Shown piece after piece: positions 1 through 27,091 of a stretch of 64,000 bases of DNA; within the stretch, counting starts at the first letter, position 1; each line of letters begins with the position of its first letter. The position numbers and the translations under genes are program-made. Below the pieces are notes generated by a model. That model was not told the DNA's origin and made no database searches. It saw nothing but the letters and a program-made list of their open reading frames with translations. Source of the DNA: Chara braunii (lineage: Eukaryota > Plantae > Charophyceae). The stretch spans positions 552,867 through 616,866 of the forward strand of contig BFEA01000016.1 in the NCBI GenBank assembly GCA_003427395.1. The letters are read 5' to 3'.

Positions 1-2920
1 GGGTAAGGGCAGTCCAGTTGTGCGTATTCTATCTATTATTTAGGCAGATCAGATACACTCTTCTATTCAGGTGAGTCTGATCGTATGCCATAGGTGAGGG
101 GGTTTATTAAAGGGAAAGAACTGAATNATCTAANGAACTACTTGGGCAAATTGANGTGNGATTGTNAGAGATGCTTGTTTATGCATGCCTATGGGCTCTC
201 ACTTGGGGCGTCTTTTTGATAGGATAGTTGCTTTANATGCTCACCAAGTGNTAGAGCCNCAGGTAGGTCAGATGGATGATGGGAGGGGGAACTTGGGATG
301 AAGATAGGACTGACCCTCCTAAGAAGTAGGGTCAATGCTAACCCACAATCTCACCTGAGGTTGTGCGAACTGTNATTGATCCTGAGTNATCAAGCNNGTG
401 TCAGGAGTTNGTCCCAAGTGTAGCCTTGNTTGTNTTTTCATCTTTCANCTTCGTATAAATCTTGGCAGCCTCNTGCTCCTACGGGAAGCGCTACCGAAAT
501 TTCTACAAATCTGAAAGAGTTAGTCATTTTGAGCTTGTAGAAATTCTGAAAAGGCACTTTTCCTACGGGAAGCGCTGCCGAAATTTCGTAGAATTTGAGG
601 AGTTANAATGTTTTTCAGCCAGAAGTTACTTAACAGATCTATNCTGACTAGAGGAGATACTTAGTGAGTTGATACTAGTAGAGGAACTAGGATACGACTA
701 GGGGGAATGTTTTCCCCTTGGCACAGGCATAAGTAGTACTCGTTTTTTGGCGTGTACTGTGATGCAGGTTTCCGTGTTGTCGCTTGAAGGCTTGATCTGT
801 TCAGCCTTTTCCTTCGAAAGATCACTCTTCTGTTATCACTGATAACAGGTCGGTTGCCGAACCGTCGGTTTACGACTCAACCCCAATTCACCCTCAATAC
901 TCAACCTAAAGAGGCTTTAGCCCTGGTGTTTTTATTGTTTTGTTGAGGTTTCACCCGGACTTTTATTGAATGGNCATTTAACAGAGGTACTCAGTATTTA
1001 TTTATGGTCGGTTGGCTGGAGGTTAGGGCTTGCCTGGCTAAAGCAAGGGGTATGAGTGTGGAGGTTGGTTGGAGTTGACTNCGTGTAGTGCATGAATCTT
1101 TGNTTGACTCTCTGATGTGATTGCATGTACGTGTGAGAGAGTCTCGTTGGATTTATGTTGAGTGATACTGCTTGGATTCAGATGGGCAAACCACATAACT
1201 GTCNTGAGAGTGAACTACCCCACAACCCTTTGTTTGAGTGAGACTGTTTTATCCCCGTCCTGCTGAAGTTATAATCTAAGTAGGCGTACGCTCACAGAGC
1301 TAATCCCGNCAATGCCTCTTCTAGTGATATTAAGNGTGCTTGTTNTATCCTTGTTGGGATTTCTTTGGTGGAACGATAAAGCTCCGGGCGNAAGGGTTAG
1401 CGTGTCGCTGGTGGTGCGTCAGACAACTCACCACCGCTCCTAATTCCTTCCTGCCCTAGAGGTCGTCTTACCCCGCACCCTTTGGGACACCTAAGGGTGC
1501 AGAAGACGAAAATGCCCTCAGGCCTGTTGTGCGCTCGCCAAAGGGTTACCTCCCCTTAGCGCGCCCCTCAGCCAACGCCTGAGCGTCGGATGCAACCCCA
1601 TGACTCAAGATAGGCCATTTGGGTATGGGCACCGCATAATGCGCCGTCATCACAGATACTCACGTAGAGCTACATAATGAATTGGTGTGTGCGGGTACTG
1701 CGCCTGCGCAATCTTTATACTAAGTCCATGCGCGCAGCACTCGCCGATTCTCGCACTGAAAGTTATGGGTCAGGCGGCGAGACCAAAAGCGCGGTGTGGC
1801 CGATAGACTCAAGGGGGGGTCGGTATCGCGAAGCGACACTTGGGCGGAGGACTAGTCCCAGTCGGCCTATGGGAGTCCGTGTACGGGCCTCACTATCCCG
1901 GACATCGGATAGCCTACGGGTAGGACTTTGGGCCTCCTCCGCACACGTGTTGTTTGGGCTTGCCTACCCCTTTCATTCTAGGAGGCCACTAAACTAATGA
2001 GAGCTGAAGTGAGTTTTCGTTTTGAATTTTCATGGTTGGAAGTTATAGTCCATGGCAACCATCAAAGTCAAACCCCTTGATGCTTGACCGCCACGACAGC
2101 TTAAAAGTTGTCTACTCAACCCCTCTGCCCCGGGTGTAGAAGAGGGTGTGGTCTTCAACCGCACACGGCGGTTGTTTGGCGTCGAGAGGTTACCCCTGCA
2201 AAGCGTCTGTCAGCCGAACGCAACCCCTTAGATTATCAAGGGCCGCGAGGCTACGAGTACCACATAGTACCCCATCAGCGCGAACGATTGCGGGTGTCCG
2301 CATGGCTGGTTGAGATAAGAAGGCCACCCGTTTGCTCGACTTTTATATGGAAGTCCGGCGCGCGATACTTACCTGATTCTCGTCGCCTAAAGTTATGGGT
2401 CAGATACTGAAGGGACTAGGAGTTGTTGCGTCGTGGCGTTGTGTGTGGTGTTTGTTTGTGTGTGTTTTATGTGTTATAAGTGGTAGGTGTGAGTGTTGTG
2501 GTGTAACGCATGGTGTGTGTAGTGCATCCCAGTCGACCAGCGTCGAGTCGCGTTTGGGACTTCAGCCCCCCAGTACGGCGGCTCGCGTACGGGTTCGATT
2601 CTTGGGTGTTCGACCGCGCGTAACCCCCTATGCTACAACGAACGAGAAACGCCCTCGGCAAGGCCACCTTTGGAATTCCATACGAAAGCTTTCGCATGTG
2701 GTTCAGTAGCTCGGCAGGGATACGCCCACCTAAGGGATGGTGACAGCTCCCGCAGGTGGAGGTAGGCGGTGCCTCGCTTGACTCCGTCCTGTCGTAGGGG
2801 CTCGCGAGAGGTACGGCTGGCGCACTCGGCCGGAGCGGCAAACGCTCTCCGCGACTAGTCCTGCCAAATCTTGCGTGACGCGGCCGGGAGGGTCCCCGTG
2901 GGGGACCGATGCGCTCGACA
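1..2920 (+). mobile_element. Giant LTR copy A (3' part; start lies outside the window), apparently inserted into copy B
   Basis: 820-1130 matches 8045-8355 and 2030-2920 matches 9020-9991. Ends in the family terminus CCGATGCGCTCGACA, followed by CCGG. Confidence 0.8.
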
Positions 2921-2975: not shown

Positions 2976-4034
2976 TTCCTTCGGGACACCCATTGAGGTT
3001 GAGGCTAAACAGAGAGGGCTCGTACGACCCCTATGTGGGGTGAGGCACGAAAGGCCTGGGGATGAACTCGGACGCGAGCCGGGTCAGGTGCACGCGCGAG
3101 AGCAAGGGGGAGGCCGAATGGCCGTCGGAAGACCTGCGGGGCATCGCCCCGGCCGAAGTCCTTCGGCACATCCGTTAAAATTGGAATAATACAGAGAGGA
3201 TTTGCAAGGCCCCCACGTGATGCTGACACGTATAAACCCCAAAGGAGGCGCCAGGTTCGTGTGCCGAAGTAGGGTGGGGTCGCATCCGTACGGAGTTGGG
3301 AAGTTGTGGGGCACTGCCCCGGCCTAAGTTCGTCGGGATGTCCGTTAAAACTGGCGTGATACGGAGGAGGTTCGCCCGACTACTGTGCCTAAGGATGGCA
3401 TGTGCCAAAGTCCGGGAGTAAAACCGGACGTGGGCCGGACTAAGGGCGTGCAAAAGGTGGCGAGAGGGGGTAAGCAGGCCGAGTGGCCTTTGGTGCCGTG
3501 GCAGGGAGGTTAGCTCATGGTCGCCGTGCAAGGGTGATATCCCAGGGGCCTGGAATGAACCCGGACGCGGGTTGCACCGGGTGTGTGTAAATAAGAAAGG
3601 GGACAGGTCCGAACAGTTGCTGGAGTTAAGGTGGTAGGTGCCTGAACCGGGGCCCGAAAGGAGGCCAGGTTCGTGCAGGGATAGCAGAACAGAAGGAGGA
3701 ATTACTGCGGGAGGAATCGTTCGGGGAAAGTTTGTTACGCCGGGAAGATTAGCACGGCCCCTGCGCAAGGATGGAGCATAAGGATTTGGAAAGAAGCCGG
3801 ACGCAGGTTGCACCGGGTACATACAGATAAACGGGGAGGCGGGGGGGGGGGGGCGATCAGATCATCCCGTGGTTGGGTCCTCCCGGCGGCTGCCCGTGGC
3901 GGTAGTGGAGAGGGGCCAGTCGGCACGAAGTCCTTCGAGACTTCTGTTAAAATTGGAACGATGCAGAGAAGATTAGCCTAGCTCCTACGACCAGGCAGGG
4001 CATATAAATCTTGAGGGTAGCTCAGGTTTCTTTT
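2976..4034 (+). pseudogene. U6: Tandem array of at least 5-6 degenerate U6 snRNA copies inside LTR B
   Basis: 3948-3977 TAAAATTGGAACGATgCAGAGAAGATTAGC and 3744-3773 GAAGATTAGCAcGGCCCCTGCGCAAGGATG each match the conserved U6 sequence (recalled) at 29/30. Further copies start near 2976, 3158, 3328 and 3490. Confidence 0.9.
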
Positions 4035-4860: not shown

Positions 4861-6054
4861 CTTGGGCATCAACAGGCTGTTTTCTAGCAAGGTGACAACA
4901 GGCCAGCTGCGTGAGCTGCCGATCGGACTGTTAGCCAATGAGCTGACTGTCCTTTCGGCCTGCGCGATTATGGACTGTGGGCTGCGGACAGGAGGCTATG
5001 GACTGCAGACTGCGCACTACTGTGGACTGCGGGCCACTGTGTACCGCTGCTGCTACTGCTGATCTACATCGTTGTGTGCTGTTGCAAGGGCGGCCGCTGG
5101 GCACGCAGTCTTGCTGCCTTATGTTACTGTGCACTATTGCTCGCTGTGTACTGACGCTGTGCTTGCGGACTAAGTGCGGGCAACGACTGTTGTAGACTGT
5201 TCGCGTTTACTGTTGACCGTCGCCGTGCACGGCTGCGGCCTACGGCTGGCTGGGCACAAGTTACACGGTTGCTGTGGACTGCGCCCGGACTGCTGATTGC
5301 GGGCGACTATGACTCCGGTTGTTGACCATCGCCGGATACAGCTGCTTCCTGCCGTTAGTGTTGCGTGTTCCTGCATACTACCATAGGAGGTGGCTGGTTG
5401 TTATGCGCTGCGGTGGATGGATGTAGGGGAGTGACCGGGCTGGAAGGGGGGGGGTTATTGCTGCAGATTGGGGGGTCATCAGGGGCGGGACATCAGCAGT
5501 TGATTCAGAATTGACCGAGCTGTCACATTGGCTACCACTTGTGGGGCCCTCAGGCGCTGAAGGATTGAAGACCCTCTCGAGCGAGTCTGAGTATATCTTC
5601 CCTGAATCTGAGAGTCTCAAACCTCCTCTCCCTGCCCTTCTTACTCTAAGTCTGGTCCTTTGGTTCTGAGAGGAAGGCGGCAGGCGGGCTTGTGACCCGT
5701 GAGCCGCGCCAAGGCCTTTGTGGGAGGTTCGCCCCACCGATTGCGGGAGCTCTGCCGGGACTCAGGAGGAGTCCTGGAGGCAGGGAACTGAGTGGTGATT
5801 CCCGGACTCCCTCTATAAACCCAGTTATAACCCCTACTTGTACACCGTTCTACGGTTGACTGAGCGTATGGTGTGAACCCTGTATTTGATTTTGGGTTGA
5901 CTTTCGGGACATAAGTCAGACTAAAGTAAACGAACGTGTATGCAACCTCAGTTTCAGCCTTGTTGATTGTCTAAAAGCAGATTGTGAACAAAGGGGGTGC
6001 ATCTGGAGGAAGGTTGGGAGGAAGGCAGTATTGTGTGCAGTTTGACTGGGTCGT

Positions 6055-7005
6055 TAAGGCTGGAAGGTCTCCATAAGTTTGGGGAAGCCCAGCGCTTTGT
6101 TTATTTTGGTTTTGTGTGGAACAATTATGCCGCTCTATAAGTTTAGGTAGCCTGAGTGCTCTGAAGGTTGGGGAGTCCCCATAAGTTTGGGGAGACCCGG
6201 TGCTGTGAATTGTGTGGAGGGTCGGGACGCTCTATAAGTTTAGGTGACCTGACTACTTTGACTTGTGAGGGTTTGATTGTGGATGATTTTCAGGGACTCA
6301 GGGCGCTCTATAAGTTTAGTTACCTTGGGTTGCCTTGTTTTACTTGGAGGTTCTTTCAGTTTCTTTGATTCTGAACGAGGAGGTCTGAACCGCTCTATAA
6401 GTTTAGGTGGTTCAACCCTTCTCCTGTTTGTTATGAGGGGGTAATTCTAGTAGGGGGCAGACCGCTCTATAAGTTGAGGTGGCCTGGCCTACTGCCTCAT
6501 ATGGACTGGATCAGAGAGAAATGAATCTGACAGAGGATCAGACCGCTCTATAAGTTTANTTAGTCTGACCCAATGCCTCGCACATGTTGGAACCCAATGA
6601 CTATAATTTGGTTATATTGTACTACTATATTACTGGATCATAATAGGCCAGTCAGACCGCTCTATAAGTTTAGGTAGCCTTGCTATAGCTTATCATAACT
6701 GAAGAGAGTATAATTAAGAGGCATAACTGAATGTAAGCCTGGGAAGGCTGAGCAATGTTCTAAGTTGAGCGACCCAGCCTTATGTCCACTTTAAGATTAA
6801 GTTCAGAGAAATATATACAACTTGGCTATTTAAACAATTCAGGGCGGCTAGAATGGTCTAGTCATATGCCTAAAGAAGAGATAAATAGTTGTGTCCTCTG
6901 TTTGGTGTATATTTGGCTAAGTCAGATGCGCTNTATAAGTTTAGGTGATCTGACTTTAGGCCTGGTTAAGTTGGGCGCGCTCTATAAGTTCAAGTGGCCT
7001 GACCT
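6055..7005 (+). repeat. Hairpin array I in LTR B: ~12 stem-loops with conserved loop GCTCTATAAGTTTAGGT and non-repetitive spacers
   Basis: Motif near 6070, 6131, 6177, 6228, 6304, 6391, 6463, 6544, 6658, 6929 and 6978, mostly flanked by its own inverted repeat (TGAACC/GGTTCA 6386-6414; AGTCAGAT/ATCTGACT 6920-6955). Confidence 0.9.
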
Positions 7006-7289
7006 ATGCCTTATGTAAGTTGGGTATAAATGGGTAACTCACAGAGGGAGCATGAACTATTGCTTGCTAAGAACTTGGGGTTGGTGAGAGTACTTACCTT
7101 TGTGGTTTGGCCTGCATGTGACTGAGTGGGATTACTACTTGGTCTGGGTTTCAGGTTGACAGGTAGTTGTTTTAGAGGCTCGCCACGTGCTAGAGCAATA
7201 GGAGTTAGTTCAATTCCTGCATTTTCTGAGCTGATTTTATTTTACTTAGATCGATTCTTGCATTTTCTGAGACCCTTGGTTATACTTGG

Positions 7290-7780
7290 GTTTGTATAAA
7301 TTTTGGCAAGCTACTTTCTCTATGGAAAGCGCTGCCGAAATTTCTACAGGTTCAAGGAGTTAGTCAAATTTTTACTTGTCAAAAGTTCAAATTGTCTTTT
7401 TTTTGTATCTGACTAGGCAAAATTGGACTTTGAGAAGTTAAGGTTAGTTCCAAATTCGGAACTTAGCCTTGTATAAATTTAGGGAAAGCACTTTTCTAGA
7501 GGGAGTGCTGCCGAAATTTTTCCAAAACTGAGGAGTTAGTAAGATTTTGTCTGGGTTGAACTCGAGTTGCCTTTTGAGTTCGAATCTGACTTAGTATAAA
7601 TCTGGGAAGTCTCCCTTTCTAAAGGGAGTGCTGCCCAAATTTCTACTAATTCGGGGAGTCAGACAAAACTTGACTTTCCAGAGTTACAGATTATTTTTAT
7701 TTTTCATATTCGAGCGTATATAACTTTTGAAAAGACACTTTTCCTACGGGAAGGACTGCCGAAATTTTCTTAGTTTAAAG
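7290..7780 (+). repeat. Hairpin array II in LTR B (about 4 long imperfect hairpins)
   Basis: Repeats of TTGTATAAAT..CACTTTTCCTACGGGAAGYGCTGCCGAAATTTCTACA. The same unit is at 450-600 in copy A. Confidence 0.85.
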
Positions 7781-8054
7781 AAGTTAGATTATATTTTGGC
7801 AGGTGGCGATTCTGGTGATCCACTCTGTATAGGGGGGATTATACCATGATCCACCCTTACTTTGGGCCCTGCTTAAAGGTAGGTTCAGGCTTAGTCAGTA
7901 AGAGGGATCTTGGATGAGAATGTGTTATGGAGTTGTATTCTCCATACACTTATGATTTCAGCTTGGTGGTTGGCCTGCCTTGTGTTACAGGTCATCTTGA
8001 CCGTTTGATTCAGGATTTTGACTAGTGTCAGCTTGATCTTACAAGGATCATCTT

Positions 8055-8073
8055 CTGTTATCACTGATAACAG
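8055..8073. other. Conserved palindrome CTGTTATCA-C-TGATAACAG in the LTR core
   Basis: Perfect 9-bp inverted repeat; also near 830, 13665, 20805 and 36449. Confidence 0.7.
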
Positions 8074-8393
8074 GTCGGTTGCCGATTCGTCGGTCTACGA
8101 CTCAATTCCAACTCACTCTCCATACCCAACCTAAAAGGCTTTAGCCCTGGTGACTTTATTGTTTGTTAAGAATTTCACCCGGACTTTTATTGAATGGCCA
8201 TTTGACAAAGGTACTGAGTATTTAATTATGGTTGGTTGAACAGGAGGTTGGGGTTTGCATGGCTAAAGCAAGGGGTATGAGTGCGGATATTGGTTTGGGT
8301 TGACCCCGTGTAGTGCGTGTTTTGTCGTTCGATTCTTGATGTGATTGCAGGTACGTCCTGTGGCTCGGATTTTGGATTTGGATTGCCTGCGAT

Positions 8394-8410: not shown

Positions 8411-10260
8411 GGTTGTGAGGAGTCCCACTGTGCCTGTGAGAAGTGATCGTCTCAACTCTATCTCCCTTATGCGTGTATGCTTGGGTGTACCTATGGTGGG
8501 TGTTCGCAATGCCTGAAGGGCCCCGCGTTAGAAGTCTGCTTAGAGGTTAAGACTGAGAGGCATAGGGAAAAACTTTCCTTTTGCTTGTTTGCTTCTTGGG
8601 GGGTTTCTTAGTCGGACGCTGGTCCTGGGTCGAGATTCAAGGTCCTTGTCCAGGACATCCCAAGCCCTAGACTCTGCAGGGGAGGAACTTCCCCTCGTAC
8701 AGAGCCTATCTGCATTGGTTGTTGAGACACCCAACCCTAAAGGCGGAAATGTCGTGAGGGCCGAACAGCGTGTCCCTCAGCCGTTCAATATCGTGAGCGG
8801 TGACCCCTCACGATATATTCCTTCACCCACTCAATATCGCGAGGCCGGAACTGCGATTACCACGTATGACCGACATCGTATGGTTGGTATGTGATTGACC
8901 TGCAGCCGCGCGACTTTATACTAGAATCGTACGTGCGACGCTCCCCACACTAGCGTCTAAAGGTTATGGGATCAAAAGGGGCGCACACATTGCACGAACG
9001 CTTGGGATTATTAGATTTTCGTGGTTGGACGTTGTAGTCCGTGGCAGCTGTCAAAGTCAAACCCCTTGACTTCCACCCAAACCTGGAGTAGGACTTAACC
9101 CCAGGGCCGCATGAAACGACTACCACCACAGGTATGGACCTGTGTACCACCCACTCTGCACAGAGTGCAGAAGAGGGTGTGTGGTCTTCAACCGCGCATG
9201 GCGGTTGTCCAGCGTCGAGAGATTAACCCTCAAGGCGCATGTTAACCGACACTTGAGTGTCGAAGGCGACCCTCCAGATTAACGAGGACCGCACGAGTAT
9301 AGGTACTACATAACACCCCATCATTGCAACTGCTTGCATACGTTTGCGTTGCTAGTCGATATGAGTAGGCCCTTCGTCCGCGCGGTTTTATACTAAGTCC
9401 CACGCGAGACGCCCAGCCGGATTCCGCATCGGAAAGTTATGGGTTGGCTACCGAGGGGCTAGGAGCGTTGTCGCGTTGTTTGTGTTGTGTCATTTTGCGT
9501 GTGTGTGTGTGTTCCATTTTTTTTTTGTTCGTAAAGTGGTGTGCGCGTGGGGGGGGGGGGGGGGGGATGCGTCCTAGTCGATCGACTACGGGCCACGCTT
9601 GGAACTTCAACCCCCAAGATGTCGGTTCGCGTGCGGGTCCGATAGGCGTGCTACCGCTCGTACTCCCTGTGCTACAGCGAACGAAAAACGCCCTCGGCTG
9701 GTCCACCTCTTCGATTGCAACTGATTAGCTATTGTACTGTGGACTGATAGCTCGGCGGGGATACGCCCACCGAAGGGAGGTGACAACTCTCGTAAGGTGG
9801 AGGTAAGATGTGCCTCGCGTAGGCCCTATCCTGTCGTAGGGGCTCGCGAGAGGTATGGCTGGCGCACTCGGTCGGAGCGGCCTAAGGAAGCTCCTCTTGT
9901 GTGTTCGTAACGAGGTTGGTCCAACTCCTGCGTGACGCGGCCGAGAGGGTCCCGCGTTGCCATGTGCGGTGCCGGACCGATGCGCTCAACAGCGGTGGTA
10001 TACAAGTTGCCATAAATTCTTGCCTTTGAAAAACACGTGGTAAAAAAAAAAATGTACAGATTATAAAGACTATATCACCAGCGGTCAAGTTTTTCGTGGG
10101 TATCTAGAAATCGTATTTTATTGTGAAAAATTAACAGTCTAAGTGAAATTGTCATAGCATGATAGAGACAAAAAACTGAAAGGATACGTGTGATATAAAA
10201 CCAAATTGATGTTATTGCCATAGCCTGCGGGCTTTGTTCTCTTCCAGAGCCTTTAACCCC

Positions 10261-11147
10261 TTAGGCTAAATTCTGGACTTTTATCAACTTTTGAGGTTCA
10301 AACTCTTTTTCATTCCCGTCTTCTTTTTCTTCCGGCTTTTCCGTTACTATTTGTTTTCCTTTCCCTCGTGTCTTTGACATATCCATTACCTTCTTAAGGA
10401 TTCTGACCTCCCGCGTGGCTGCCAATTGAGTCACCACTTCCTCCACTATTTTTTTAACGTCCGCCCCACCGCCAACTATGGTCTCTCTCGCTTTCCTTTT
10501 GTGCCTTTGCTGTCTCATTTGGAAGAGGTAAACTTAGTCTAATTCTCCAACTGCCATACTGTCCTTTATTGTTGCCTACATCAGCTTCTTCTCAACTGCT
10601 TTTTTGGTGGTCACGATTGCTGCCTCTGTCTGCGAGAAGTGTCTAAAAAACATGACACACTGATCTTCCTTTGACATACCTGACACTCTCCTCGCCATCT
10701 TTTAAAAGGCAGTGACAAAGGTTCCGGCCGTAGTGAAGTCAACGTGACTTAGGGCCTTACAAATTGGCCACCTTGAGCAACCCATCGCCCAAACTAAAAG
10801 CGTCTCTGCATATCGTCTTTGAAGTTGTCCCATCATCCCGCTGCATCTATTATAACGTTTTTCACTTCTGACTGCATCTCCCACAAGATACACCTTGGCA
10901 TTCGTAAAAACTTATCTGCCTCAGTAGCCTCAACCAACACTTGCTATAAAAGTTTTAACCACTGTGATACTCTTTCTCCCTTGAAGTGAAAGATATCGAC
11001 CTTCAGTAGTTGGGACCGTATCACGTCCGTTTTATCAAGTTCTTTCACAAACTCATCCGTCGATATGACCCGATTTGCAGAGCCTTCTCGCGACACCTGC
11101 GTTCCCCATTTTGACTGCCTTGTTTTTTTCTTGAAAACACAATCCAA
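10261..11147 (-). pseudogene. gag: Decayed Ty3/Gypsy gag-like ORF downstream of LTR D and its PBS
   Basis: Broken minus-strand ORFs (KVDIFHFKGERVSQWL...; basic/acidic C-terminal part) lying ~0.6 kb after a PBS; contains stops and frameshifts. Confidence 0.6.
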
Positions 11148-11707: not shown

Positions 11708-11725
11708 TCCCTAGCAACGACGCCA
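11708..11725 (-). promoter_or_regulatory. Primer-binding site, tRNA-Asp type (Athila-like)
   Basis: Minus strand reads ...CTCGACA-GG-TGGCGTCGTTGCTAGGGA, 15/18 to TGGCGCCGTTGCCGGGGA. All three differences are CpG-type transitions. Confidence 0.85.
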
Positions 11726-12588
11726 CCTGTCGAGGGCATTGCTCTCGCAAACGGACCCTCCCGGTCGTGTAACGCAAGATTTTGCATGACTTCGTCGTAG
11801 AGCGTTGCTGCTCCAGCCGAGTGCCGGAGCCATACGTTTCATGAACCCCTACGATAGGATAGAGTCACGCGAGGTACAACTTACCTCCACCCATGGGAAT
11901 TATCACCATCCCTTAGGTGAGTGTATCCTCGTCGGGCTACCAAACCATACAAAAGTTTTTTGTTTGCTATCGCAGAGGTGATCTTGTCGAGAACGTTTCT
12001 CGTTCGCTGTAGCATCGGGGGTACGTGCGGTTAACGTCCGAATCGGACCCGCTGTCAAGCGCATCGGTCCTACAGAGGGGACCCGTTGTCGGCCACGTCA
12101 CGCATAATTTTTCAAGACTTCATCGTAGAACGTTGCTGCTCCGATCGAGTGCGCTAACCATACCTCTCACAATCCCCTGCGATAAGATAGGGTCACGCGA
12201 GGTAAAACTTACCTCTACCCGTGGGAGTTGTCACCATTCCTTAGGTGGGCGTATCCTCATTATGCTACCGAACCACATGCGAAAGCTTTTCATATGCAAT
12301 TGCAGAGGTGGTCTGGCCGAGGGCGTTTCTTGTTCGCTGTAGTATAAGGGGTATGCATGGTCCTATGCCTCTATTAGACCAGTACGCGAATCGTCGCACT
12401 GGGGGCTGTGGTCCCACGAGCGACTCGATGTCGGTCGACTAGGATGCTTCCTTCTTACCACACGTTACACCACACCCCAAAAAAGTATCAAGTTACTCAC
12501 ACAAACACTGCTAATAATGGAAACAACATATGTTATGAAGAACAATAAAATGAACAAGAAAGTATCAAGTTACTCACACAAATCCGCT

Positions 12589-13263
12589 TAGGGGACCCCT
12601 TGGAAATGCGTTCGAGCGTTCGGTCCGAACGCGGACAAAAAAAACAAAACAAATCTGAAAAAAACATATATTATAAAGAACAATAAAATGAACAACATTT
12701 GCTTGAGCATTGCATCGAACTTTCTTACCAAATTTGAAATAAAAATAAAATACGAAAAATATAATAATAAAAAAATAAATTAAAATCAGTGAGTGAGCGA
12801 GCACGTTTTCAACACCGCCATCTTTGACGATTGTTAATTTTGTTTTGGCATAGCCAAATGCCCTGAAAATTTATAAATAAATACTTCACACAATAAAAAA
12901 CTTATTAAAAAAGTTTCAAATTTTAATAAATTGTTTAAGTTTCGCAGTAAAGTAAAAAAAAAAACTAAAAAGTGAAAAAAAAAACAAATAGTGAGTGGGC
13001 GAGCACGTTTTGACACCACCATCTTTGGCGATTCTTAATTTTTGTTTGGCTTAGTTAAATGACTTCAAAATTTATATCCACGTACCTCACATCAAAGAGA
13101 ACTAAAAAAGAAAAAATCAAAAAAAATAAATTAATTTTAAGTCCCGAAATATTTTTTTATGGGGGCCGAACGCCTTCGGGCTTGGACCCCGAATGGGACC
13201 CCGAACCTCCGTACGTACGGAGGTTGGCCCAAGAACTTCTGTACGTACGAGCTCGTGACCCTG
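12589..13263. mobile_element. Probable hAT-type non-autonomous insertion in LTR C
   Basis: Absent from other LTR copies; TAGGGG...CCCTG ends; AT-rich core with internal duplication. No intact TSD, and an adjacent LTR segment is deleted. Confidence 0.45.
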
Positions 13264-13839
13264 TATATATCTATATATATGTATATACATATATATAGGG
13301 GTATAAGACACGAGAGGATCACTTTTCACAATCACAGTGTGACTTCCTCCATACATATATACATGATCACAGACAATTCAAATTTGAATCTTAAATCACA
13401 AAACATACCTGCAATCATATCAAAGATTCTCACATTGACCGAGCACACACTACGCACTGTCAACTTTAACCACTCTTTGCGTTTGCGTTATTCACAGAAG
13501 CCCCAACCTTTGTCCATTCTTCCAAAAGAAAACACTTAGTCTTTTTTTAAATGACCATTTATTAAAAGTCCCGGTAAAACACAAAAAAAAACATTTCAAC
13601 CCACAAGGGCTAAGATCATAGATTGAGTAGCGATAATGAGTAAGAGTTGGGTCGAAAACCAACTTGTTATCAAAGGATAATAGAATATGATCCTCGTAGA
13701 ATAAACTTAAAGTTAGTCAAGCTTCGAATCAATCTGAATAACAGTGACCTGCGACACAGCACAGCCTTGTGCCAAAGTCATTCTTGAGCAATCATGAAAT
13801 AATCCTACCTTCCATATTGATCTCTAATACTTGTTTGAA

Positions 13840-14425
13840 AATGTAATAAATTTCGGCAGTATATCCCCTAAACGAAGTTCTAAAATACTTTAATACCTTT
13901 AAAATACAAGAAATTTCAGCAGCACTTCCCGTAGGGAAAACACCTTTGCATAATTTATAGACGACTAAATATAAAATCTGAAAGTACTCCTTGATTTAAT
14001 AAAAATTGGGCCAGCATCCTCTAAAGAGGTAGGTTTCCCTGATTTATACTAAGTCAAATATAAACTCAATATAAAACTTGAATTCTGTCAAAACAAAATT
14101 CAATTATCTCTTTAGATTTGTAAAAATTTTAGCAAAGTTTCTCGTAGGAAAGATGTTTTTTCAAAATTTATACAAAGCTAAGTACAAGATAGAAGTAACT
14201 CTCACTTTTAGACAACCAAAATTTGTTTAACTCTTTGAATTAGTAAAAAATTGGGCAACATTTCCTTTAGAGAGGTAGGCTTCTCAGATTTATACTAAGT
14301 CATATATGAAGTCGGATTAAATCGAACTTTGTGAAAGATAAAATTTAACTAACTCCTTGAATTTGCAGAAATTTCGGCAACTCTTCCCGTAGGAAAAATG
14401 TCTTTACAAAATTTATACAAAGCCA
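13840..14425 (-). repeat. Hairpin array II in LTR C (~6 units, mostly ~120-bp period)
   Basis: Repeated GAAATTTCGGCAGCACTTCCCGTAGGAAAA...ATTTATAC on the + strand. Confidence 0.85.
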
Positions 14426-14724
14426 GAAATATAAAATAAAGTTGCATCTCATAAAATGTTGAACTTGAACTAAGTAATAAACTTAACTAGAAAATGCAGA
14501 AATTTGAACTAATTCTTATAACTCCAATATATGGCGAGTCTGTAAAACAACTACCTATCAAAGCTGAGGCTCCAAACAAGTAGAACTCACACTCAACAAC
14601 ATACATATTCATATCCCAATGGGTAAGTACTCTCATCAAATGCTCAAGTTATTTTTACACAAGTAGTTCATTATTTATCAGTTGAGTAAAACCCCAATAT
14701 CATAGCTTACATATGGCATAAGAA

Positions 14725-15530
14725 AGGCTAAACCATTCAACTTAGAAACAATGTTCATTTTTTGTCTTTACTTATAAACAAAACACGGAGCATAATAAAG
14801 TTTCTATATTCATTGGGCATATGACTAAGCGATTCAACTTAGAAACCCTGCTTAGTCGCTCTAAACTGTTTAATATCAAAGTTATATATATATTTCTTCA
14901 CTTTTATAATCAAAAGCAGACATATGACTGAACCATTCAACTTAAAAACACATATTCAGCCTGCCTGAATCTTATCGCTGATTATATTCTTAGTTGGGTA
15001 TTCTCTTCTTTTAGTGATAGGATATACTCATACTATTTAACTTAGAAACCCTGTCTGAACAGCTTGTCCATATAAAATATATAATATACAATATAGGAAA
15101 AAATACTTTTAAATTTCTATTTTTATATGCGTGGCCTCTCATACTAAGTCATTCAACTTAGAAACAATACTTAGTCTCAGCTTCAATTCCCTGAAAAAAA
15201 AACACAGAAATAGTTGAGTTATTAAACTTAGAGATAGATACTCAACCCCCTCTTTCATAACTAAAAGAAAAACAGGGATCCCTAAGCTATTCAACTTAGA
15301 AACAAATGTCAGAGGTCGGTTGAAAAACCTCCAAAAAAAGCAGGTAGACCAAGCCATTTAACTTAGAAACAAATGCTTGGCCTAGAAATGCAAACCATTC
15401 AGGTCCCGCCAAACAAAGCCACCACGACTTGACTACTGAACTTTGAAAACATTGTCTGACCCATCAGAAGACAATTTAAAGAAACATAGTAGTCAGACCA
15501 TTCAACTTACAAACAATGTCTGACTCTTTG
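14725..15530 (-). repeat. Hairpin array I in LTR C (~10 units; loop ATTGTTTCTAAGTTGAATG in LTR sense)
   Basis: + strand CATTCAACTTAGAAACAAT flanked by different stems: GACTAAGC/GCTTAGTC 14823-14857, AGTCAGAC/GTCTGACT 15491-15525, CCAAGC/GCTTGG ~15349-15380. Confidence 0.9.
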
Positions 15531-18129
15531 TTGGACCTTTAACCTCGAATCAAAACCACCTTCCCCCCACCTTCCCCCCACCTTCTCCCCACCTTCCCCC
15601 AATTTAAAACCCTTTTCAGAGTTCGACTTGAGATAAACAAAAAAAAGAAAACTGAAGTTTGCGTATGCATTCCTTTATTTTACTCTGACTTAATCCCGAA
15701 AGTCAAACATAAAACGTGTGGGGATGCACGCAGTATAATCCTGCCATAGAGAGATGTACTCATAAGGGTTTTAGCATGAGTTTATAGAAGGAGTCGAAGG
15801 ATTACCACTCAGTTCCATGCCTCCAAAACTTCTCATGAGTTCCAGCAGAGCTCTCGCAATCGGTGGGCAAACTCCCTACAGAGTCTTGATGTGGTCCTAC
15901 GGGTTGCAATCCCGCCTGCGGCCTTCCTCTCGTAACCTTAGACTATACTTAGAGTAAGAAGGACAGGAGGAGGGGTTTCACACACTCGAGATACACGGAA
16001 GGGACAAACGCAACTCGCGTGAGAGGGCCTTGCAATATGGACGCGCCTGAGGACCCCGCAATGGCAGCCAAATACGCAACAGAATAACCACACCATAAGT
16101 TGAACCCGGTGTATCAATACTCTGACAATCTCCCCACTTGTAATGACAACCTCCCTGCAAAGCCTAATCATTTTATCAAACTTGCAACACCATTTCCCTT
16201 TTTTTAACTACTGCTATGCAGCCTTGAAAGTTAATGTTCACATAGAGCACCCCTCCCTTCGCTTTAAAAGAAATAAAGGCAAAAACTCAGTAGGTCTTAA
16301 CAACCCCACTGCGCGCAACAGTCGTACACAGTGGCAGGGAAAAATAGCAATGTCCTGCAGTGTGTCTCGCAAAACCCAACCATTTACCACAGTAGCCAGC
16401 CACTACTGCATGTACAACAACCGCACGCAGCAACCATATGTTGTTGTAATGACCAGCCAATTACGCCAGCAACCAGCAAATATTGCACACACAACAACCG
16501 TGCACATCAACATATATCGCTATAATGCCCAACAACGTGTAGCAGAGGGCGCAGTTCCACATAAACATAGTTTTAGCAGAACTCGTAGCTTTAGTAGGAA
16601 CAACAACCGAAGCACGGTCCTTTTGTTCTGCAGATGAACTCCCTCTCCGGAGGCCAATTCCAACGAGAGGGTGTGAGCGGTCCGCTTAATCCGACACAGC
16701 ACACCTCCTCCGCTCACCCGATCGATTGTGAACAACACCGGTTTGCTTGATTGGCTGAGACAATACGCCCACTTGCTCAGTTGCGGCAGCATGCTCACTT
16801 ACTTTTCTCTCTCACTGTCTCTCTCTTTCCCTCTCGCTCTCACTCTTTGCCAACTCTGCTTACCACAAATGACCTACTTGGACCATACTCGACTTTCTAT
16901 TCATCCGCATCGCTAGTTCCAGTTGTCAGGTTAGTGCTCCTTCTCCGTCGTTTCTTGTTGTCGTCACCCCAGTCGCCTTCTTTGTTGTCCTTACCTACGG
17001 TGCATAAGTGCACTTGATCGTCAATCCGACCAGGTTCAAAAATTGGCTTGCTGGGCGAATGCTTCGAGGCAAGATTCTCACGGCCACCAGGTACGTATGC
17101 TTCTCACTTCCACTCTCGCTTTTTTTTTTTCTCTCTCCATTACTGTTATCAGCAACTGATGCACCTAGCCGTTAGTATGGCCAGGTTCATTCACTTCGAA
17201 GGAGAATTATGAAAACGACGAAACACAAGTATCGTGAACACAGTCCTTGAGACGAGTACGACAAGCGCCTTACCCCCGGGCGATTACGGCGACCACGAGG
17301 AGCGCTCGAATCAAGGTAAGCACAACTATTCACCTGACAGGCGATGATGACGATATCAACCATGAGGTGGCAAGGACGCACCAAAGTGGAGGTAAGAGGT
17401 TTTATCGAAAGAGGATGAAAGTCACCACGGGAAGAAAGAAGGCCGCACAATCACGATTCCAAGCAATCATGAATACTGACGCCGACTCGATCTGCATGTC
17501 CCAAATGAATTTCGCGTTAGAGTATGGAACGATACGTCACGATACTCCCGTAGTGGCTGCGCACCTGCTACTACTAGTAGAGGCCAAACCATCATCCGAA
17601 CTGAGAATCAACATGCCAATCGAATCGCAATGCGCGAAAACCTCGGAAACGCCTCCTCGTTCGTGGAAAACAACCGAGAATCTAGCGGATGCTTCAACAC
17701 TCGCCCTCCCTTTTTTGGCTCCCTCTCTTTTTCCGCGCACCCCCTTTCTCTTCATCCTCCCCTTCTACTAACTCTCCTCCAGATCTAACTACACCATTTA
17801 ATCCACCTTGCCAAAATAACTCTATTTACAATCTTCCCCTACTCGTTTTCGTCAAGATACGAGTGTGTTGTAGTTGTTTACTCCCGCCATAGTTTCTTTC
17901 CCCGTGGCTACCTCCATCCCTGTTTTAAATGCACATGGCGCGATTTGCGTCCAGATTCACCCCTTTCTTAAGGCCTGTTGCTTCTTCCTCCCTCCTCGAT
18001 TCTACCTTGTCTTTTTATTTTTCTCCTTTTTCATTATCAGTGCCGTCTTCCCGATCATTACTAACACATCTTCATGGAAAAGCAGTCAATGACCCAAACT
18101 TACATGGAGCTATTCGTTAGTCTCAGCGA

Positions 18130-18955
18130 CTCTGTGAAACTTCGGATGCGACAACTATTAGATGGATCAATTAGCCTTTCGCCCCTATACCCAAGTCCGA
18201 CGAACGATTTGCATGTCAGTATTGTTGTGGGCCTCCACCAGAGTTTTCTCTGGCCACGCCTTGCTCATACATAGTTCGTCGTCTGCAGGTCCCAACGGAC
18301 AATGCTCACACTCACACCTCTCACAACAGATCATGGTTAGTGGGTGACGCATTTCCCAGTTGTGCCCCACCCTGCTTCAACTCCTGCTGCCCTAAAGGAA
18401 ACTTCGAAGGAACCAGCTACCAGATGGTTCGCTTAGTCGATCGCCTCTATACCCAGGTTCGACGATTGATGGACATTGCTACTGCGGCAGACCTCCGCCA
18501 ACGCTTCTCTCTGCGCTCAACTTCGGCATAGTTCTCGTCTTTTGGGTCCCATAGGGCATGCTCTAATTCACATCTCTCAGAGCAGATCGTGGTTAGTGGG
18601 CGGCGTATTCCCCAGTTGTGCCCCGCCCTGCTTCAGCTCCTGCTGGCCCAAAGGAAACTTCGAAGGAACCAGCTACCAGATGGTTCGCTTAGTCGTTCGC
18701 CCTTATACCCAGGTCCGACGATCGATGGGCACATTGCTATTGTGGCAGGCCTCCGCCAGCGCTTCTTTCTCTGCACCCAGCCTAGGCATAGTTCATCGTC
18801 TTTTGGTTTCCATAGGGCATGCTCACACTCACACCTCTTACCACAGATCGTGGTTGGCGGACGGTGCAATCGTAGAGCCCTCGCCACTCATGTTTCTTTC
18901 GCCTTGTGGCTTAGCCACCCACCCACTCGTATGTACACCGAGCTCCTCGGCCCTT
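18130..18955 (-). pseudogene. Three tandem degenerate LSU (25S/28S) rRNA fragments (LR3-LR5/D3 region) inside LTR C
   Basis: + strand matches the LSU reverse complement GGAAACTTCGGAGGGAACCAGCTACTAGATGGTTCGATTAGTCTTTCGCCCCTATACCCAAGTC.GACGAACGATTTGCA.GTCAG (recalled). Units start near 18130, 18390 and 18647. Confidence 0.9.
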
Positions 18956-21044
18956 TCCTCAACAATTCATGGGTGTACCAACTGAGCTAGGCGCAACCCG
19001 TTCGAAGATCGGCCCCAGTACCAACGCCGGGATCAGCCTAAAAACAAAATAGAGAATAAAATACATAAATTTACTAAAGCAATGGTTAAATAAAAATAAA
19101 AAGTTAAAAAATAGAAGACGGGGCTAGGGGGACCACAGACACCCTTTTGTCCCGCCAAATGGGCCTGCTGTTGTGGTTGTTAACAAAACCGAGGGGGATA
19201 ACCCCGCCAGACCCTGAACCCCTCGGTCCCTTCAAGCTGCTTCAATGCTCTTTCGTCGTCGTGTTCTGGGCCCGATCCCTGAACCTGCTGCCTGAAACTC
19301 AAACACCATAACCGATAGTGCTCTGCCCAAGGCTGGTACTGATACTATCAGATAACTTTATAAATACGTTCAACCAGTTGCACGCCCCAATGGAAATGCC
19401 CCAGGGCTGCACTTTGGCCTATCGGTCAGTTTCACGACTACCAAAACCGGTATCTTTTGTTATACAGGTGTCGGGTTCCACGCACGACCCTCACTCACTC
19501 GTCACTAGCTACAAGCCTATTCATCATTGATACTCAATTTTATCAGATATAGGAAAAATCACCCGCGCCTTAAGCTCGCGCGTTCACACACCCCCTAATC
19601 TTACCTTGCACGCGCCCGTTGTTCGGCTACAAAGAGTCAACCGTGGGCCGTGCAATACGTACATAGGCTCCTACCTTATATATCATCCTAGGTATCATTT
19701 GTGTAAAGTGCAAATATACGCATGAATATCCTTGTAAGGGTATTCACATCGACACCGTGCGAGAATTGTCGCCCGAGGCGTTGATCTCCCAACGTCAATC
19801 CTGCTCCGGTCGGCTAGGACGACCAATTTAACCATGCAACACACTTCAGAAAATAAAATCAAGCTTCATACGTAAATCACGCCCAGTCCCTTGTTTGCAT
19901 CCGATCCATAACTTTCGACGTAAGAATTAAGCAGGTGTCACGTGCGAGACTCTGAATAAATATCGGGGCGATGTAGACTTTCTCATGTCGACTAGCCACA
20001 CATGAATGGGCAAGTTGTCGCAATCGTGGCGAACTATGTGGTACATAGAACCACACGATCCTTAAAGATGTCGAGGTTCATTTTCGACACTCAAGTGTCG
20101 GATGACACACGCCTTGAGGGGTTAATCCCTCGACGCTCGACAATCTCAAGTGCGATTGCGAGACCTACCCTCTTCTGCACACTATGAAGAGGAGGGGTAA
20201 GTGGGCTTCGACCCTTGGTGGTGGCCAAACGCCTCTACCTCTGGGAGCAGGGCTCCATCATCGGAGGCCTGAAAACATGTTAAGGGGTTTGACTTCGGCA
20301 GTCGCCACAATTATAAAAATAAAAAAAGCAAAAATAAAAGGGGATCTCCCTTTGCTCTCAGTAAAAGTTTGCTCAATCCTTCCGTATGGTCAAAGTATAC
20401 CGCGTGAGTACTTAAAAACATGAATATAACGACCTTATTGGACACGAGGTGATCACTCTCACAATCACAGTGCGAATCCCTTCAAAATATACACATGATC
20501 GTAGACAAATTCAAATATGGACTTAAACTCACAAAGCATACCTGCAATCATACCAAAGATTTAACATCAACAGACCACGCGCTACACGGGATCAACTTCA
20601 ACCATTTTTTGTACTCACACCCCTTGCCTTAGTCAAACAAGTTCCCACCTTTGTCCAACCTTCAAAAATAAGATCACTCAGTCCCTTTTTAAATGATTAT
20701 TTAAGAAAAGTACAGCTAAAAATCCAAACAAGCATTTTAACCCACAAGGGTTAAGGCCTTAAGTCGAGTAGCGAGATTGAGTTAAAGTTGAGTCCAAAAC
20801 CGACCTGTTATCAAAAGATAACAGAAGATGATCCTCGAAGGATCAGCCTGAAGTTAGTCAAACCTTCGAACAATAAAAAAAAAAAATGACATGCAACACA
20901 ACATAAGTCAGTGCTCAAACTATGATTCAGTGAATATATGATCGAGTAAATATACGATTGAGTGAAGACATGATTAAGTGAATATATGATTGAGTGATGA
21001 AATGATCATACCTTCCTACCTTATCTTTGACACTTATCTAAAAA

Positions 21045-21670
21045 TATCAAGAGTTTTGGCAGAATCTCCTTTAGCAGGGGTAGATCATTAAAACTTTCAA
21101 AGTCCAAAAATATTATAAGTCCTTTTGAATTAAGACATTCTGGCAGCGCTTTCCGTATGATAAGTGTCTTTGCAAACTTTATATAAGACTAATGAAAATC
21201 CCAGAAAACTTCTAACTGAAAAAACTAAAATTTTATTTAATTATTCAGATTAACAAAAATTGGGGTAGCACCTCCCCTAGGAACCTACAATCAAAAATAT
21301 TATGCTAATCCAGAAGCGAGTCACGTAAACTTCCTAGCTTTTTCAAAAACAAACTTTGTCTAACTCCCTTAACTAGTAACAATTTGGGCAGCATCTCCTT
21401 TAGAGAAGGTAGCTTCCCAGATCCCTACCGACTCATAAATATGAAGTAAACAAAAACTTATAACTTTGCATAAAAGGATATGTCTAACTCTTTGGATTAG
21501 TAAAAATTTCGACAACATTTCTTTTAGAGAAGGCAGAGTGTCAAATTTATACTAATCCAAAAATGACTTAGACAATTTTATTATGCAAATCTTGAAAAAT
21601 TATCTAACTTCTTAAATCCTGTATAATTTGGGGCAGCAACTCTTTTAGAGAGTTAATATTCCAAATCATA
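21045..21670 (-). repeat. Hairpin array II in LTR D (~6 units)
   Basis: Repeated AAATTTKGGCAGCAYCTCYTTTAGAGA...ATTTATAC at ~120-bp period. Confidence 0.8.
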
Positions 21671-21734
21671 TAAGTATAAGTCCTAAAACAAAAATTAATG
21701 AAAAACTTAAAACTATCTCAAATCGCTTCAACAC

Positions 21735-23302
21735 ATGGTGAGTCGGCTGGAGGGAATTCACCCTATGTTGAGCAACGCGAAGAACATACCGCGTGTTTTG
21801 GAACACGATCGAGCAGTGAGTCTACAGAAGGAGATCGCAGCAGGTTTTGACTTGTGGAAAATTTGTCGGAAGAAACCTCCTCTGGTTCCTATCAACACAA
21901 TACGCGAATGTTTTTCCCAAGTTGAATCTTGCGCACATTCCTTGTATGAGCACCATGTTTATGATGTGAAAAGTCGTTTTGAGGGTTTGGTACTTACTCC
22001 CCTCGATCGTAACCCCGGGGAGACGCTCGTAATATGCCCAACCATATTCTATGAGGGGATGATGGATACGTTTGTACGAAACCCTAGGTACATGATTAAA
22101 GTGCCAAGTGAACAGGAAACGCTGAGGGAGATTAACAAAGACGTGAGGGAGGCCGGCTTAAGCGATTTTGCTAAATGGGATAGGTCGGGGACTTTCGGAT
22201 CGGCATATATTATACATAAGCATAAGGACTTGGGAAGGTATAGACCGATATGCCCAACGTTTAGTGAACCGATGATCAAAACTGGGAGGGTCGTCTCTAG
22301 AGCACTTAATTACTTGTTGTCAACTATTCCCCGAAACGGGCATTTTAACTTGCCTTCCGTTTCCGCGTTACCTCAGCGCTTGCATGATGCAAACAGACGG
22401 ATCTTGAGCTTGGGGCAGGGATATGAGGTGTCCTCCTACTCATTTGACATTAAGGAAATGTTTAGTCGTCTGCCACACTGTGATGTCCTACGGGCAGTGG
22501 AGTGGGTTATAGCATTCCATATGTCGAAGGGTCGTACTTTCGTTCGGGTGAACACGAGAGGGAAGGGTTCTTCCTTCGGGGTTACTACAGGCGCAGACCA
22601 TTGGTGTAAACTGAACCTCACAGAGATTTTGATCTTTTTTAAGTTAGAACTGAAACATACTTACACTTTCGCCATGAGTGTATTGCTGCAGCAGGTGGTT
22701 GGTATCCCGATGGGAAAAACTACCAGCCCCCCGTTAGCTTGTATCTTGTGTGCCTATTCGGAATTTATGTACCTTCGTAGTCTGGGTAGATACGCCCGCT
22801 GTGTGTTCGACTATCGATTGGTGGATGACGTCATGTTCATCACTGTGACTAAGAACTAGGACTTAGCGGCGAGATTGTTGACTGGCTTCGAGAACTGCTA
22901 TCCAGACTCATTAACTTTGAAAAAGACCGATGACGGCGGCGGGACCTTTGATTTCTTGGGCTGCCAGATTCGGACGTCCAGGTGCTTTCCCTATCTGAAT
23001 TGCGTCCAGATGTCTAAGAATGAGGACTGCGTTTGGACAGATAAACCGCTGAAGATCCATAACGGGCAGTCCTTTCTGTCCTGGGATGTAAAAGGCAAAA
23101 AAACGCAGTCGTCAGTGGCTACCTACATCGGATTGACAGGAACACCGCGATCAGATCGGAGATACCGCGACGGGTGCTGACACTGAAACAAGAACTCATG
23201 AAAAAGGACTTCCCGGACTCGTTTTTTCATCGAGTACTGAAGCACTTTGCAGTGAGACATGACAAAATTTGGCAACATACTGTCCGCTTCTTGGAGCAAT
23301 AA
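21735..23302 (+). pseudogene. Penelope-like reverse transcriptase (truncated; internal stop and frameshift)
   Basis: Motifs PLDRNPG, HKHKD..YRPI, FDIKEMFSRLPH, QQVVGIPMGKTTSPPLA, RLVDD, DFLG. No C-terminal GIY-YIG is visible. Confidence 0.85.
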
Positions 23303-23309
23303 GACAGGG

Positions 23310-24097: not shown

Positions 24098-24138
24098 CCC
24101 CCTGATGAGATGACGGCGGCCATCGAAACACGTCGGGG
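24098..24138 (+). ncRNA. Minimal type I hammerhead ribozyme
   Basis: CCCC-CTGATGA-GATG(acggcggc)CATC-GAAAC-AC-GTC-GGGG: complete core, stems I and II, and a very short stem III. Predicted cleavage after 24134. Confidence 0.88.
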
Positions 24139-26847: not shown

Positions 26848-26855
26848 GCTATCCC

Positions 26856-26890
<35 letters not shown>

Positions 26891-27080: not shown

Positions 27081-27091
27081 CACATATGGTA

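What the first reader, a model, noticed from the sequence alone, without database searches (positions are those of the whole stretch)
6055..7005. Array of stem-loops with an invariant loop and position-specific stems (hairpin array I)
Seen: about 12 copies of GCTCTATAAGTTTAGGT separated by unrelated 30-150 bp spacers. Most are closed by a different 5-8 bp stem (TGAACC/GGTTCA, CAGAC/GTCTG, AGTCAGAT/ATCTGACT, GTCGGG/CCTGAC). The stem mismatches I checked are G-T on the LTR-sense strand here and A-C on the + strand in minus-oriented copies (24854-24890, ~37682-37716), i.e. G-U pairs in LTR-sense RNA. Inference: a multivalent protein-binding or loop-loop pairing platform (like an MS2 array or multiple psi hairpins) under structural selection, not a satellite.
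Basis: partly seen in the sequence, partly recalled or inferred. Interest (0 to 1): 0.9.

Follow-up and report, generated by a model that had tools for sequence, protein, structure and literature searches.

The report
Hairpin array in giant retrotransposon LTR
Twelve look-alike hairpins sit inside the unusually long (about 7,000-base) end-repeat of a very common jumping gene in a stonewort alga; their stems keep pairing through matched changes, so they likely form an RNA landing pad for one protein, possibly the element's own packaging protein.

Summary
The array is real. 6055-7005 holds 12 hairpin units, all with a TAAGTT loop (the 17-mer covers loop plus a 3-bp closing stem). Three more copies in the window carry colinear arrays with a different apical sequence. 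Over 40 units, lower stems pair with their own partner far more than with swapped partners (215/280 Watson-Crick against 173±5), and closing stems covary. The host is a Ty3/gypsy LTR of about 7.2-7.7 kb in a Chara braunii-like genome: TG..CA ends, 4-bp NCGN target duplications, a tRNA-Asp/Asn primer site and broken gag on the array's strand. Read depth suggests thousands of copies. The LTR also carries a second hairpin array and U6 or 28S rRNA fragments. Best reading: an RNA platform binding many copies of one protein (likely Gag) to mark genomic RNA; this is inferred, not shown, and transcription of the array is not demonstrated. Ten library searches found no description. New variant of a known kind; interest 0.55.

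The parts
6055..7005 (+). Hairpin array I of LTR copy c1: 12 units (loops at 6074, 6138, 6182, 6235, 6311, 6398, 6470, 6551, 6665, 6761, 6936, 6985); 9 of the GCTCTA-TAAGTT-TAGGT type, 2 CCA/TGG, 1 ancestral TTC/GAG
5528..5800 (+). Conserved block A just upstream of the array; ends in a donor-like GGT(R)AT in 4 of 4 copies; candidate R region or first exon (inferred)
7085..7097 (+). TGAGAGTACTTAC, conserved in 4 of 4 copies between the arrays; contains the complement of a 5' splice site (function untested)
7284..7790 (+). Hairpin array II: long stems with TACG or TAAAG caps; 4 units detected here, 23 in five copies
7981..8355 (+). Conserved block B with acceptor-like start and donor-like end (CAG/GTAYG in 4 of 5 copies)
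8700..9470 (+). Two diverged C modules (TTTATACTAAGTC ... AAAGTTATGGG)
9570..9991 (+). Block D and LTR 3' end (...GATGCGCTCAACA), followed by GCGG; highest read depth; c1 is a solo or 3' LTR whose 5' end is not in the window
3158..4030 (+). U6 snRNA-like fragments (3158-3260, 3740-3805, 3930-4030) upstream of c1, same strand; likely in its U3 part
1..2920 (+). Partial LTR copy c0 (array II, B, C, C, D; 3' end 2920 followed by CCGG)
12053..19754 (-). Solo LTR c2 (7,702 bp with insertions), nested in block D of c3, 4-bp duplication ACGG/GCGG; array I at 14723-15528; three 28S fragments at 18167-18941
11728..28980 (-). 5' LTR c3, interrupted by c2 and by a Penelope-like element (~21700-24270); array I at 24443-25234; 28S fragments 26848-28137
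11713..11725 (-). Primer-binding site, 11 of 13 matches to the published tRNA-Asp/Asn site, 2 nt after the c3 LTR end
10207..11069 (-). Broken gag (stops and a frameshift), 40-54% identical to N-termini of Chara Gag-Pol proteins; cut off by the inverted c1 copy
34959..42627 (-). Solo LTR c4 (7,669 bp, ~0.5 kb of it an insertion), nested in an inverted block D, 4-bp duplication GCGT/ACGT; array I at 37586-38346; 28S fragment 41207-41335
42628..43045 (+). Remainder of block D and 3' end of an older copy c5, split by c4

Best explanation
The array is a module of the roughly 7-kb LTR of a high-copy Ty3/gypsy retrotransposon family, its hairpins keep pairing through compensatory changes, and it likely works in the element's own RNA as a multivalent landing pad for one protein, most likely the element's zinc-knuckle Gag, which would mark unspliced genomic RNA for packaging or export. 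Shown: LTR identity and strand, unit anatomy (position-specific lower stem, bulge or internal loop, 3-bp stem, UAAGUU loop), covariation, and a subfamily-wide switch of the apical sequence in c1 while spacers stayed colinear. Inferred: that the structure forms in RNA; that different lower stems stop units from mis-pairing while one apex is presented 9-12 times; that the apex switch reflects co-evolution with a binding protein; that the array lies in an intron-like stretch between a donor after block A and an acceptor before block B, as retroviral packaging signals lie behind the major donor (recalled). Whether it is in U3 (3' UTR of the RNA) or R/U5 (leader) is not settled. My odds: LTR identity 0.9, selected RNA structure 0.7, element-encoded partner about 0.45.
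For: Termini TG..CA with a 6-bp inverted end: three 5' ends, six 3' ends. Both testable nested copies have 4-bp duplications with one transition, and the flanks of c2 overlap block D by exactly 4 nt. The only match at up to 2 mismatches to the published Asp/Asn primer site in 128,000 positions lies 2 nt after an LTR end, p about 3e-4. 656 nt further on the same strand lies gag homology (80 hits at E<=0.001); 15 of 18 scanned hits carry protease, RT, RNase H or integrase, in gypsy order where several occur; 19 of 80 have a CCHC knuckle. Pairing: 215/280 against 172.7±5.1; 51 cells with two-sided change against 24.3±5.6 and score 0.488 against 0.311, 0 of 500 shuffles, all slid registers lower; closing stem 17 against 5.4±1.8. 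Of 11 listed majority differences in array I, the 4 that fall in units all restore a pair or the motif (6560, 6681, 6966, 6984). A second hairpin array follows.
Against: G-U bias equals composition; shared non-Watson-Crick pairs are 2 G-T, 2 A-C, 1 other. Whole-array folding z-scores: sense -3.3, -1.3, -0.1, -1.4; antisense -4.1, -3.8, 0.7, -0.5. Pairs with a two-sided change (8) were reached by 299 of 500 shuffles; the closing-stem count rests on two or three events. Poly(A) reads over the array are few and on both strands (X8 depth 6.5-27.8, X7 at most 1.8), follow the DNA profile, and show no start or end peaks; no A-to-B splice joint among the 15 joints shown of 261. Only four old copies were available. 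No second LTR or polypurine tract of the same element is in the window.
Confidence: 0.45

Rival explanations
1. The same RNA hairpins bind a host protein (TAR-like activation, export, splicing repression or silencing evasion) rather than Gag.
For: Same structural evidence. Stem, bulge, short stem and hexaloop recall HIV TAR and the iron-responsive element (recalled). Splice-site-like motifs flank the arrays.
Against: The apical sequence switched in 9 of 12 units of c1; a conserved host protein would not obviously allow or drive that. No host partner is identified.
Confidence: 0.2
2. The units are repeated DNA sites for a transcription factor in U3, like the palindrome region of maize Sirevirus LTRs, and hairpins are a by-product.
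For: The array lies 4.2-4.3 kb inside the 5' end and 2.6-3.0 kb from the 3' end, so it could be U3. No strand bias beyond composition; weak RNA signal. TTTATACTAAGTC occurs in both orientations in the LTR.
Against: The conserved core is not a palindrome; arms outside it differ by position yet stay complementary to their own partner across an asymmetric internal loop, which a double-stranded site would not need.
Confidence: 0.17
3. One chance hairpin was tandemly duplicated and homogenised, and template switching within inverted repeats during replication or reverse transcription produced apparent compensation without selection.
Against: Spacers diverged and differ in length while the apex stayed fixed; unit number and order are kept between copies about 25-35% apart; the asymmetric internal loop is kept rather than perfected; a second array with its own fixed asymmetry follows.
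Confidence: 0.15
4. The whole 7-kb unit is a non-autonomous Ginger-type DNA transposon or a Penelope-like element rather than an LTR.
For: Ginger1 has TGTNR ends and 4-bp CCGG/CCGT/ACGG duplications; read depth rises towards the 3' end; the middle 2 kb differs between units.
Against: Inverted ends are about 6 bp, not 40-270; primer site and gag follow one copy; 9 of 10 family motifs searched are absent from the Chlamys supplement and the tenth hit is inside an unrelated coding stretch.
Confidence: 0.03

Closest known systems
Non-chromovirus Ty3/gypsy lineages Phygy, Athila and TatII (PMC6317226; passages and supplement 3 read)
   Same: TG..CA LTR ends; 4-bp NCGN target duplication as in Phygy; tRNA-Asp/Asn primer site as in Athila and TatII; long non-coding regions as in the Ogre/Tat/Athila group.
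   Different: The combination fits no listed lineage except loosely TatII (Phygy: Trp primer, whole element 7.7-10 kb; Athila: 5-bp duplication). Lineage by RT tree not tested.
Palindrome region of maize Sirevirus LTRs (PMC4728375; four passages read)
   Same: Several copies (mean 7.3) of a short motif inside a plant LTR, predicted to fold.
   Different: Sireviruses are copia (recalled); their motif is itself a palindrome upstream of the TATA box and hairpins form between copies. Here each unit is its own hairpin with a non-palindromic apex and a private stem.
Retroviral psi stem-loops, HIV TAR/RRE, CTE-type export elements (recalled, not read)
   Same: Stem-loops with a fixed apex in LTR-element RNA that bind Gag, Tat/Rev or host factors.
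   Different: Those have one to four hairpins, not 9-12 plus a second array; no sequence likeness tested; no Rfam match over the array.
Cassandra elements with 5S rRNA in the LTR (recalled, not read)
   Same: Pieces of a structural RNA gene carried in an LTR.
   Different: Here decayed U6 or 28S domain-II pieces, in a 7-kb LTR of a gag-bearing family; no promoter role is evident.
Ginger1 DNA transposons (PMC2836005; passages read)
   Same: TGTNR ends and CpG-centred 4-bp duplications.
   Different: No 40-270-bp inverted repeats; primer site and gag present.

Membership tests
Ty3/gypsy LTR retrotransposon | LTR ends TG..CA with short inverted ends | tested here: met
   6 of 6 3' ends finish in ACA; 2 of 3 5' ends begin TG, the third TA
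Ty3/gypsy LTR retrotransposon | 4-6 bp target-site duplication | tested here: met
   2 of 2 nested solo copies, each with one transition; c2 flanks overlap block D by 4 nt; the c4 short flank alignment is not significant alone
Ty3/gypsy LTR retrotransposon | tRNA primer site just after the 5' LTR | tested here: met
   11/13 match 2 nt after the c3 end, unique in the window; seen after 1 of 6 ends
Ty3/gypsy LTR retrotransposon | gag then PR-RT-RH-INT on the same strand | tested here: met
   gag in the window; domain order only in homologous proteins, as this copy is cut after gag
Ty3/gypsy LTR retrotransposon | Two LTRs around an internal domain, polypurine tract before the 3' LTR | not testable with these tools
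   No genome is held; the internal domain is cut by c1
Phygy | 4-bp NCGN duplication | tested here: met
   7 of 9 terminal flanks are NCGN; one of the other two is the primer site
Phygy | tRNA-Trp primer, short non-coding part | tested here: not met
   Asp/Asn-type primer, 7-kb LTR
Athila | tRNA-Asp/Asn primer | tested here: met
Athila | 5-bp duplication | tested here: not met
   4 bp
Tat (TatII) | Extra archaeal-type RNase H; RT phylogeny | not tested
   No reference set on hand
Ginger1 DNA transposon | 40-270 bp terminal inverted repeats | tested here: not met
   About 6 bp
Chlamys/PLE-X Penelope-like elements of C. braunii | Sequence shared with the published consensus elements | tested here: not met
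   Exact-word search of the supplement only, 10 motifs
Retroviral packaging signal / TAR / RRE-type element | Folds in RNA and binds Gag or a trans-activator | not testable with these tools
   Only covariation could be tested
Tandem satellite | Head-to-tail units of fixed period | tested here: not met
   Tandem Repeats Finder lists nothing at 6055-7005; spacing 44-175 nt

The most novel reading that the evidence does not exclude
A plant-lineage gypsy family has a 7-kb LTR that is a modular RNA machine: two hairpin arrays inside a retained intron form a multivalent lock whose apex co-evolves with an element-encoded zinc-knuckle key (Gag, or the second CCHC protein behind integrase), so subfamilies package or export only their own RNA, as complex retroviruses do.
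Probability: 0.25. Interest if true: 0.8.

Novelty: new variant of a known kind. Interest (0 to 1): 0.55.

Why it matters
How plant LTR retrotransposons pick their own RNA for packaging is poorly known (my own knowledge). A natural array with a fixed apex, private stems and two apex versions in one genome makes the question testable by swapping apex and Gag between subfamilies. If structure is not selected, this is only an unusually long, modular LTR.

Tried and rejected
No genome is held. Run search: no RNA holder listed. Collection scans: 0 hits; three short chance matches L001-L003 with no further likeness. Rfam: nothing over the arrays or blocks A-D; no tRNA. Blocks A and D do not fold better than shuffles (z 0.58, 0.20; antisense -0.51, 0.32); four-copy consensus folding of D gave a covariation term of -0.12. 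A gapped arm alignment was too loose and included one false unit (15546), dropped later; the hand-set registers were wrong for several units (G-T:A-C 44:31) and were replaced. Units 6551 and 6936 (with N) are not in alignment A4; A7 has only the 29 canonical units; two out-of-register rows were left out of the lower-stem count. The covariance model found only its 29 training units and none of the 11 c1-type units. Word-seeded protein searches and Pfam missed the gag pieces. The 2-kb middles of the four LTRs share no DNA or protein likeness. Rejected: rDNA spacer or ETS (no 18S, fragments internal to 28S), non-autonomous Penelope element, Ginger transposon, satellite, kissing loops. TTTATA in the C modules as TATA box is doubtful because the motif is also the complement of an array II arm. 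Flanks of LTR ends in other genomic copies could not be examined, so the primer site rests on one copy. Literature searches without a description of this family or array; the Chara genome paper was not read, and subscription papers are not searched.

Full report
Observation. The 17-mer occurs 9 times at up to 2 mismatches, all on + between 6132 and 6995; 0.01 are expected and 0 of 100 shuffles reach 9. Three variant units bring the count to 12, each with TAAGTT, spaced 44-175 nt; no tandem repeat is called there. Each unit folds as a lower stem of 6-9 bp, a bulge or internal loop, a 3-bp stem and a UAAGUU loop.

Family. Self-comparison shows five or six diverged copies of a multi-kb non-coding repeat in the first 43 kb. 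Four carry array I (c1 on +, c2-c4 on -) and align unit by unit, spacers included. Copies c2-c4 read TTGTTTC TAAGTT GAATG; c1 has GCTCTA TAAGTT TAGGT in 9 units, CCA/TGG in 2 and the older form in 1. The apex was therefore replaced along the c1 array while spacers stayed in register. A neighbouring reverse transcriptase has 26 of 29 homologues named Chara braunii. In one DNA run, single-copy pieces have depth 8-13 while bins over array I have 11,318-34,410, block A 120,253 and block D 1,033,760; the tool warns that summed depth is no copy number, so I read only orders of magnitude: thousands of copies or more.

Structure tests. With registers chosen by Watson-Crick count alone, 215 of 280 lower-stem cells pair in 40 units, against 172.7±5.1 (max 187) when arms are swapped within a copy and 153.0±5.5 when shuffled, 300 rounds each. 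On 29 canonical units, 85.3% of cells pair, 51 cells show a two-sided change (24.3±5.6 shuffled) and the score is 0.488 (0.311±0.024), 0 of 500 shuffles; the number of pairs with such a change (8) was reached by 299 of 500. On 38 units the closing stem shows TTC/GAA, CTA/TAG and CCA/TGG, 17 cells against 5.4±1.8, which reflects few events. Among the 40 differences shown of 862, 11 lie in array I; the four inside units restore a pair or the motif in the majority of related copies. Against: G-T:A-C is 26:16 (p=0.16) or 38:20 (p=0.025 against 1:1), but composition predicts a share of 0.665; folding z-scores do not favour the sense strand. Pairing is kept; the strand is not shown by this route.

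What the repeat is. Six 3' ends finish at ...GATGCGCTCGACA-like sequence and three 5' ends begin TGTCGA-like followed by GTGAATACC. Unit c2 (19754-12053) sits inside block D of c3: its flanks align to D 7-87 and 84-442, a 4-nt overlap, ACGG/GCGG. Unit c4 (42627-34959) sits in an inverted D with GCGT/ACGT; its short flank aligns only weakly. Seven of nine flanks are NCGN. The c3 end at 11728 is followed after 2 nt by the only match at up to 2 mismatches, in 128,000 positions, to the tRNA-Asp/Asn primer site printed in bioRxiv 10.64898/2026.03.20.713144 (passages read). Broken frames 656 nt further on the same strand hit 80 proteins; 7 of 7 looked up are Chara braunii gene models; 15 of 18 scanned carry protease, RT, RNase H or integrase domains, in gypsy order where several occur; homology spans 11069-10207. 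So the repeat is a Ty3/gypsy LTR of about 7.2-7.7 kb: c2 and c4 solo, c3 a 5' LTR, c1 a solo or 3' LTR inserted into c3's gag. This fixes the array's strand as the genomic RNA strand.

LTR layout. 5' arm; one to three 28S fragments (model 675-954) or, in c1, U6 fragments, all in sense; about 2 kb unrelated between copies; block A; array I; TGAGAGTACTTAC; array II with 23 long hairpins in five copies (82 of 120 outer-stem cells Watson-Crick); block B; C modules; block D. Donor-like motifs end A and B and an acceptor-like motif begins B. Start and poly(A) sites are unknown, so U3 against R/U5 is open; either way the array is in the genomic RNA.

Expression. 726 of 8.9 million and 6,828 of 16.7 million poly(A) records were laid, some poly-G artefacts; depth over array I is low and on both strands, with no start or end peaks. 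Block A shows a one-strand excess in X7 (26.2 against 0.33); the library's strand was not controlled. Transcription of the array is not shown.

Mechanism. A fixed apex on private stems presents one site many times without mis-pairing between units, and an apex switch across a subfamily is what a co-evolving partner would produce. Gag homologues have CCHC knuckles, some a second one near the C-terminus (19 of 80 with any). I put 0.45 on an element-encoded partner marking genomic RNA, 0.2 on a host RNA-binding protein, 0.17 on DNA enhancer sites, 0.15 on unselected duplication and 0.03 on a non-LTR element. Binding is untested.

Known systems. Neumann et al. (PMC6317226; passages and supplement 3) list NCGN 4-bp duplications for Phygy, Asp/Asn primers for Athila and TatII, and LTRs up to about 5 kb. 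Sirevirus LTRs carry palindrome clusters (PMC4728375; four passages). Ginger1 shares ends and target but has long inverted repeats (PMC2836005; passages). Chara Chlamys elements (PMC8557442; passages, section 9, supplement searches) likely explain the insertion at 21700-24270, not this family. TAR, RRE, psi and Cassandra are recalled. Ten searches found no description of this LTR or array; supplements of preprints and subscription papers were not seen. Unchecked earlier notes describe hairpin rows in long LTRs of other genomes, a lead only.

Verdict. Real feature, LTR context established, structure kept, function inferred. New variant of a known kind; interest 0.55.

Noticed in passing
window 18167-18941, 26848-27071, 27861-28137, 41207-41335 (-) and 3158-4030 (+): LTR copies carry decayed 28S domain-II pieces (tandem in c2) or U6 pieces at the same place, always in LTR sense; the U6-like bin has DNA depth 40,799.
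   Followed up: partly
window 38858-41200: The variable middle of c4 has 7 GGTAAG donor motifs on the antisense strand in 2.37 kb (1 on sense; 4 in the last 20 kb, both strands), as from a captured spliced gene.
   Followed up: partly
window 21700-24270 (+): Penelope-like element inserted between arrays I and II of c3, with a reverse transcriptase like Chara gene models and a hammerhead-like core near 24105-24140 seen by eye.
   Followed up: partly
window 9387, 1714, 35553 against 7588-7600: The C-module motif TTTATACTAAGTC is the exact complement of an array II left arm: possible long-range pairing or a two-way DNA site.
   Followed up: no
block D, at 19755/12052 and 42628/34958: Both nested solo LTRs landed in the first 90 nt of block D of older copies, at CpG-centred sites.
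   Followed up: partly
P0041, P0061, P0068, P0070, P0091, P0100: Several Gag-Pol homologues have a CCHC knuckle near the C-terminus, behind integrase: a possible accessory nucleic-acid-binding protein, or a gene-model fusion.
   Followed up: no
window 5915-5935 and equivalents: An AATAAA-like hexamer followed by T-rich sequence lies between block A and array I in all four copies; a candidate poly(A) signal.
   Followed up: no
window 28943-28974 (-): The LTR 5' end forms a 13-bp hairpin, -17.9 kcal/mol in c3.
   Followed up: no
window 48009-53184 (+): An unrelated broken gypsy element (protease, RT, RNase H, SH3).
   Followed up: no
window 29975-30038 (+): A separate partial U6 copy.
   Followed up: no
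joint 9996 to 3151: One DNA contig joins an LTR end through 21 letters to U6-like sequence; the letters loosely resemble a Met primer site (recalled motif). Single contig.
   Followed up: no
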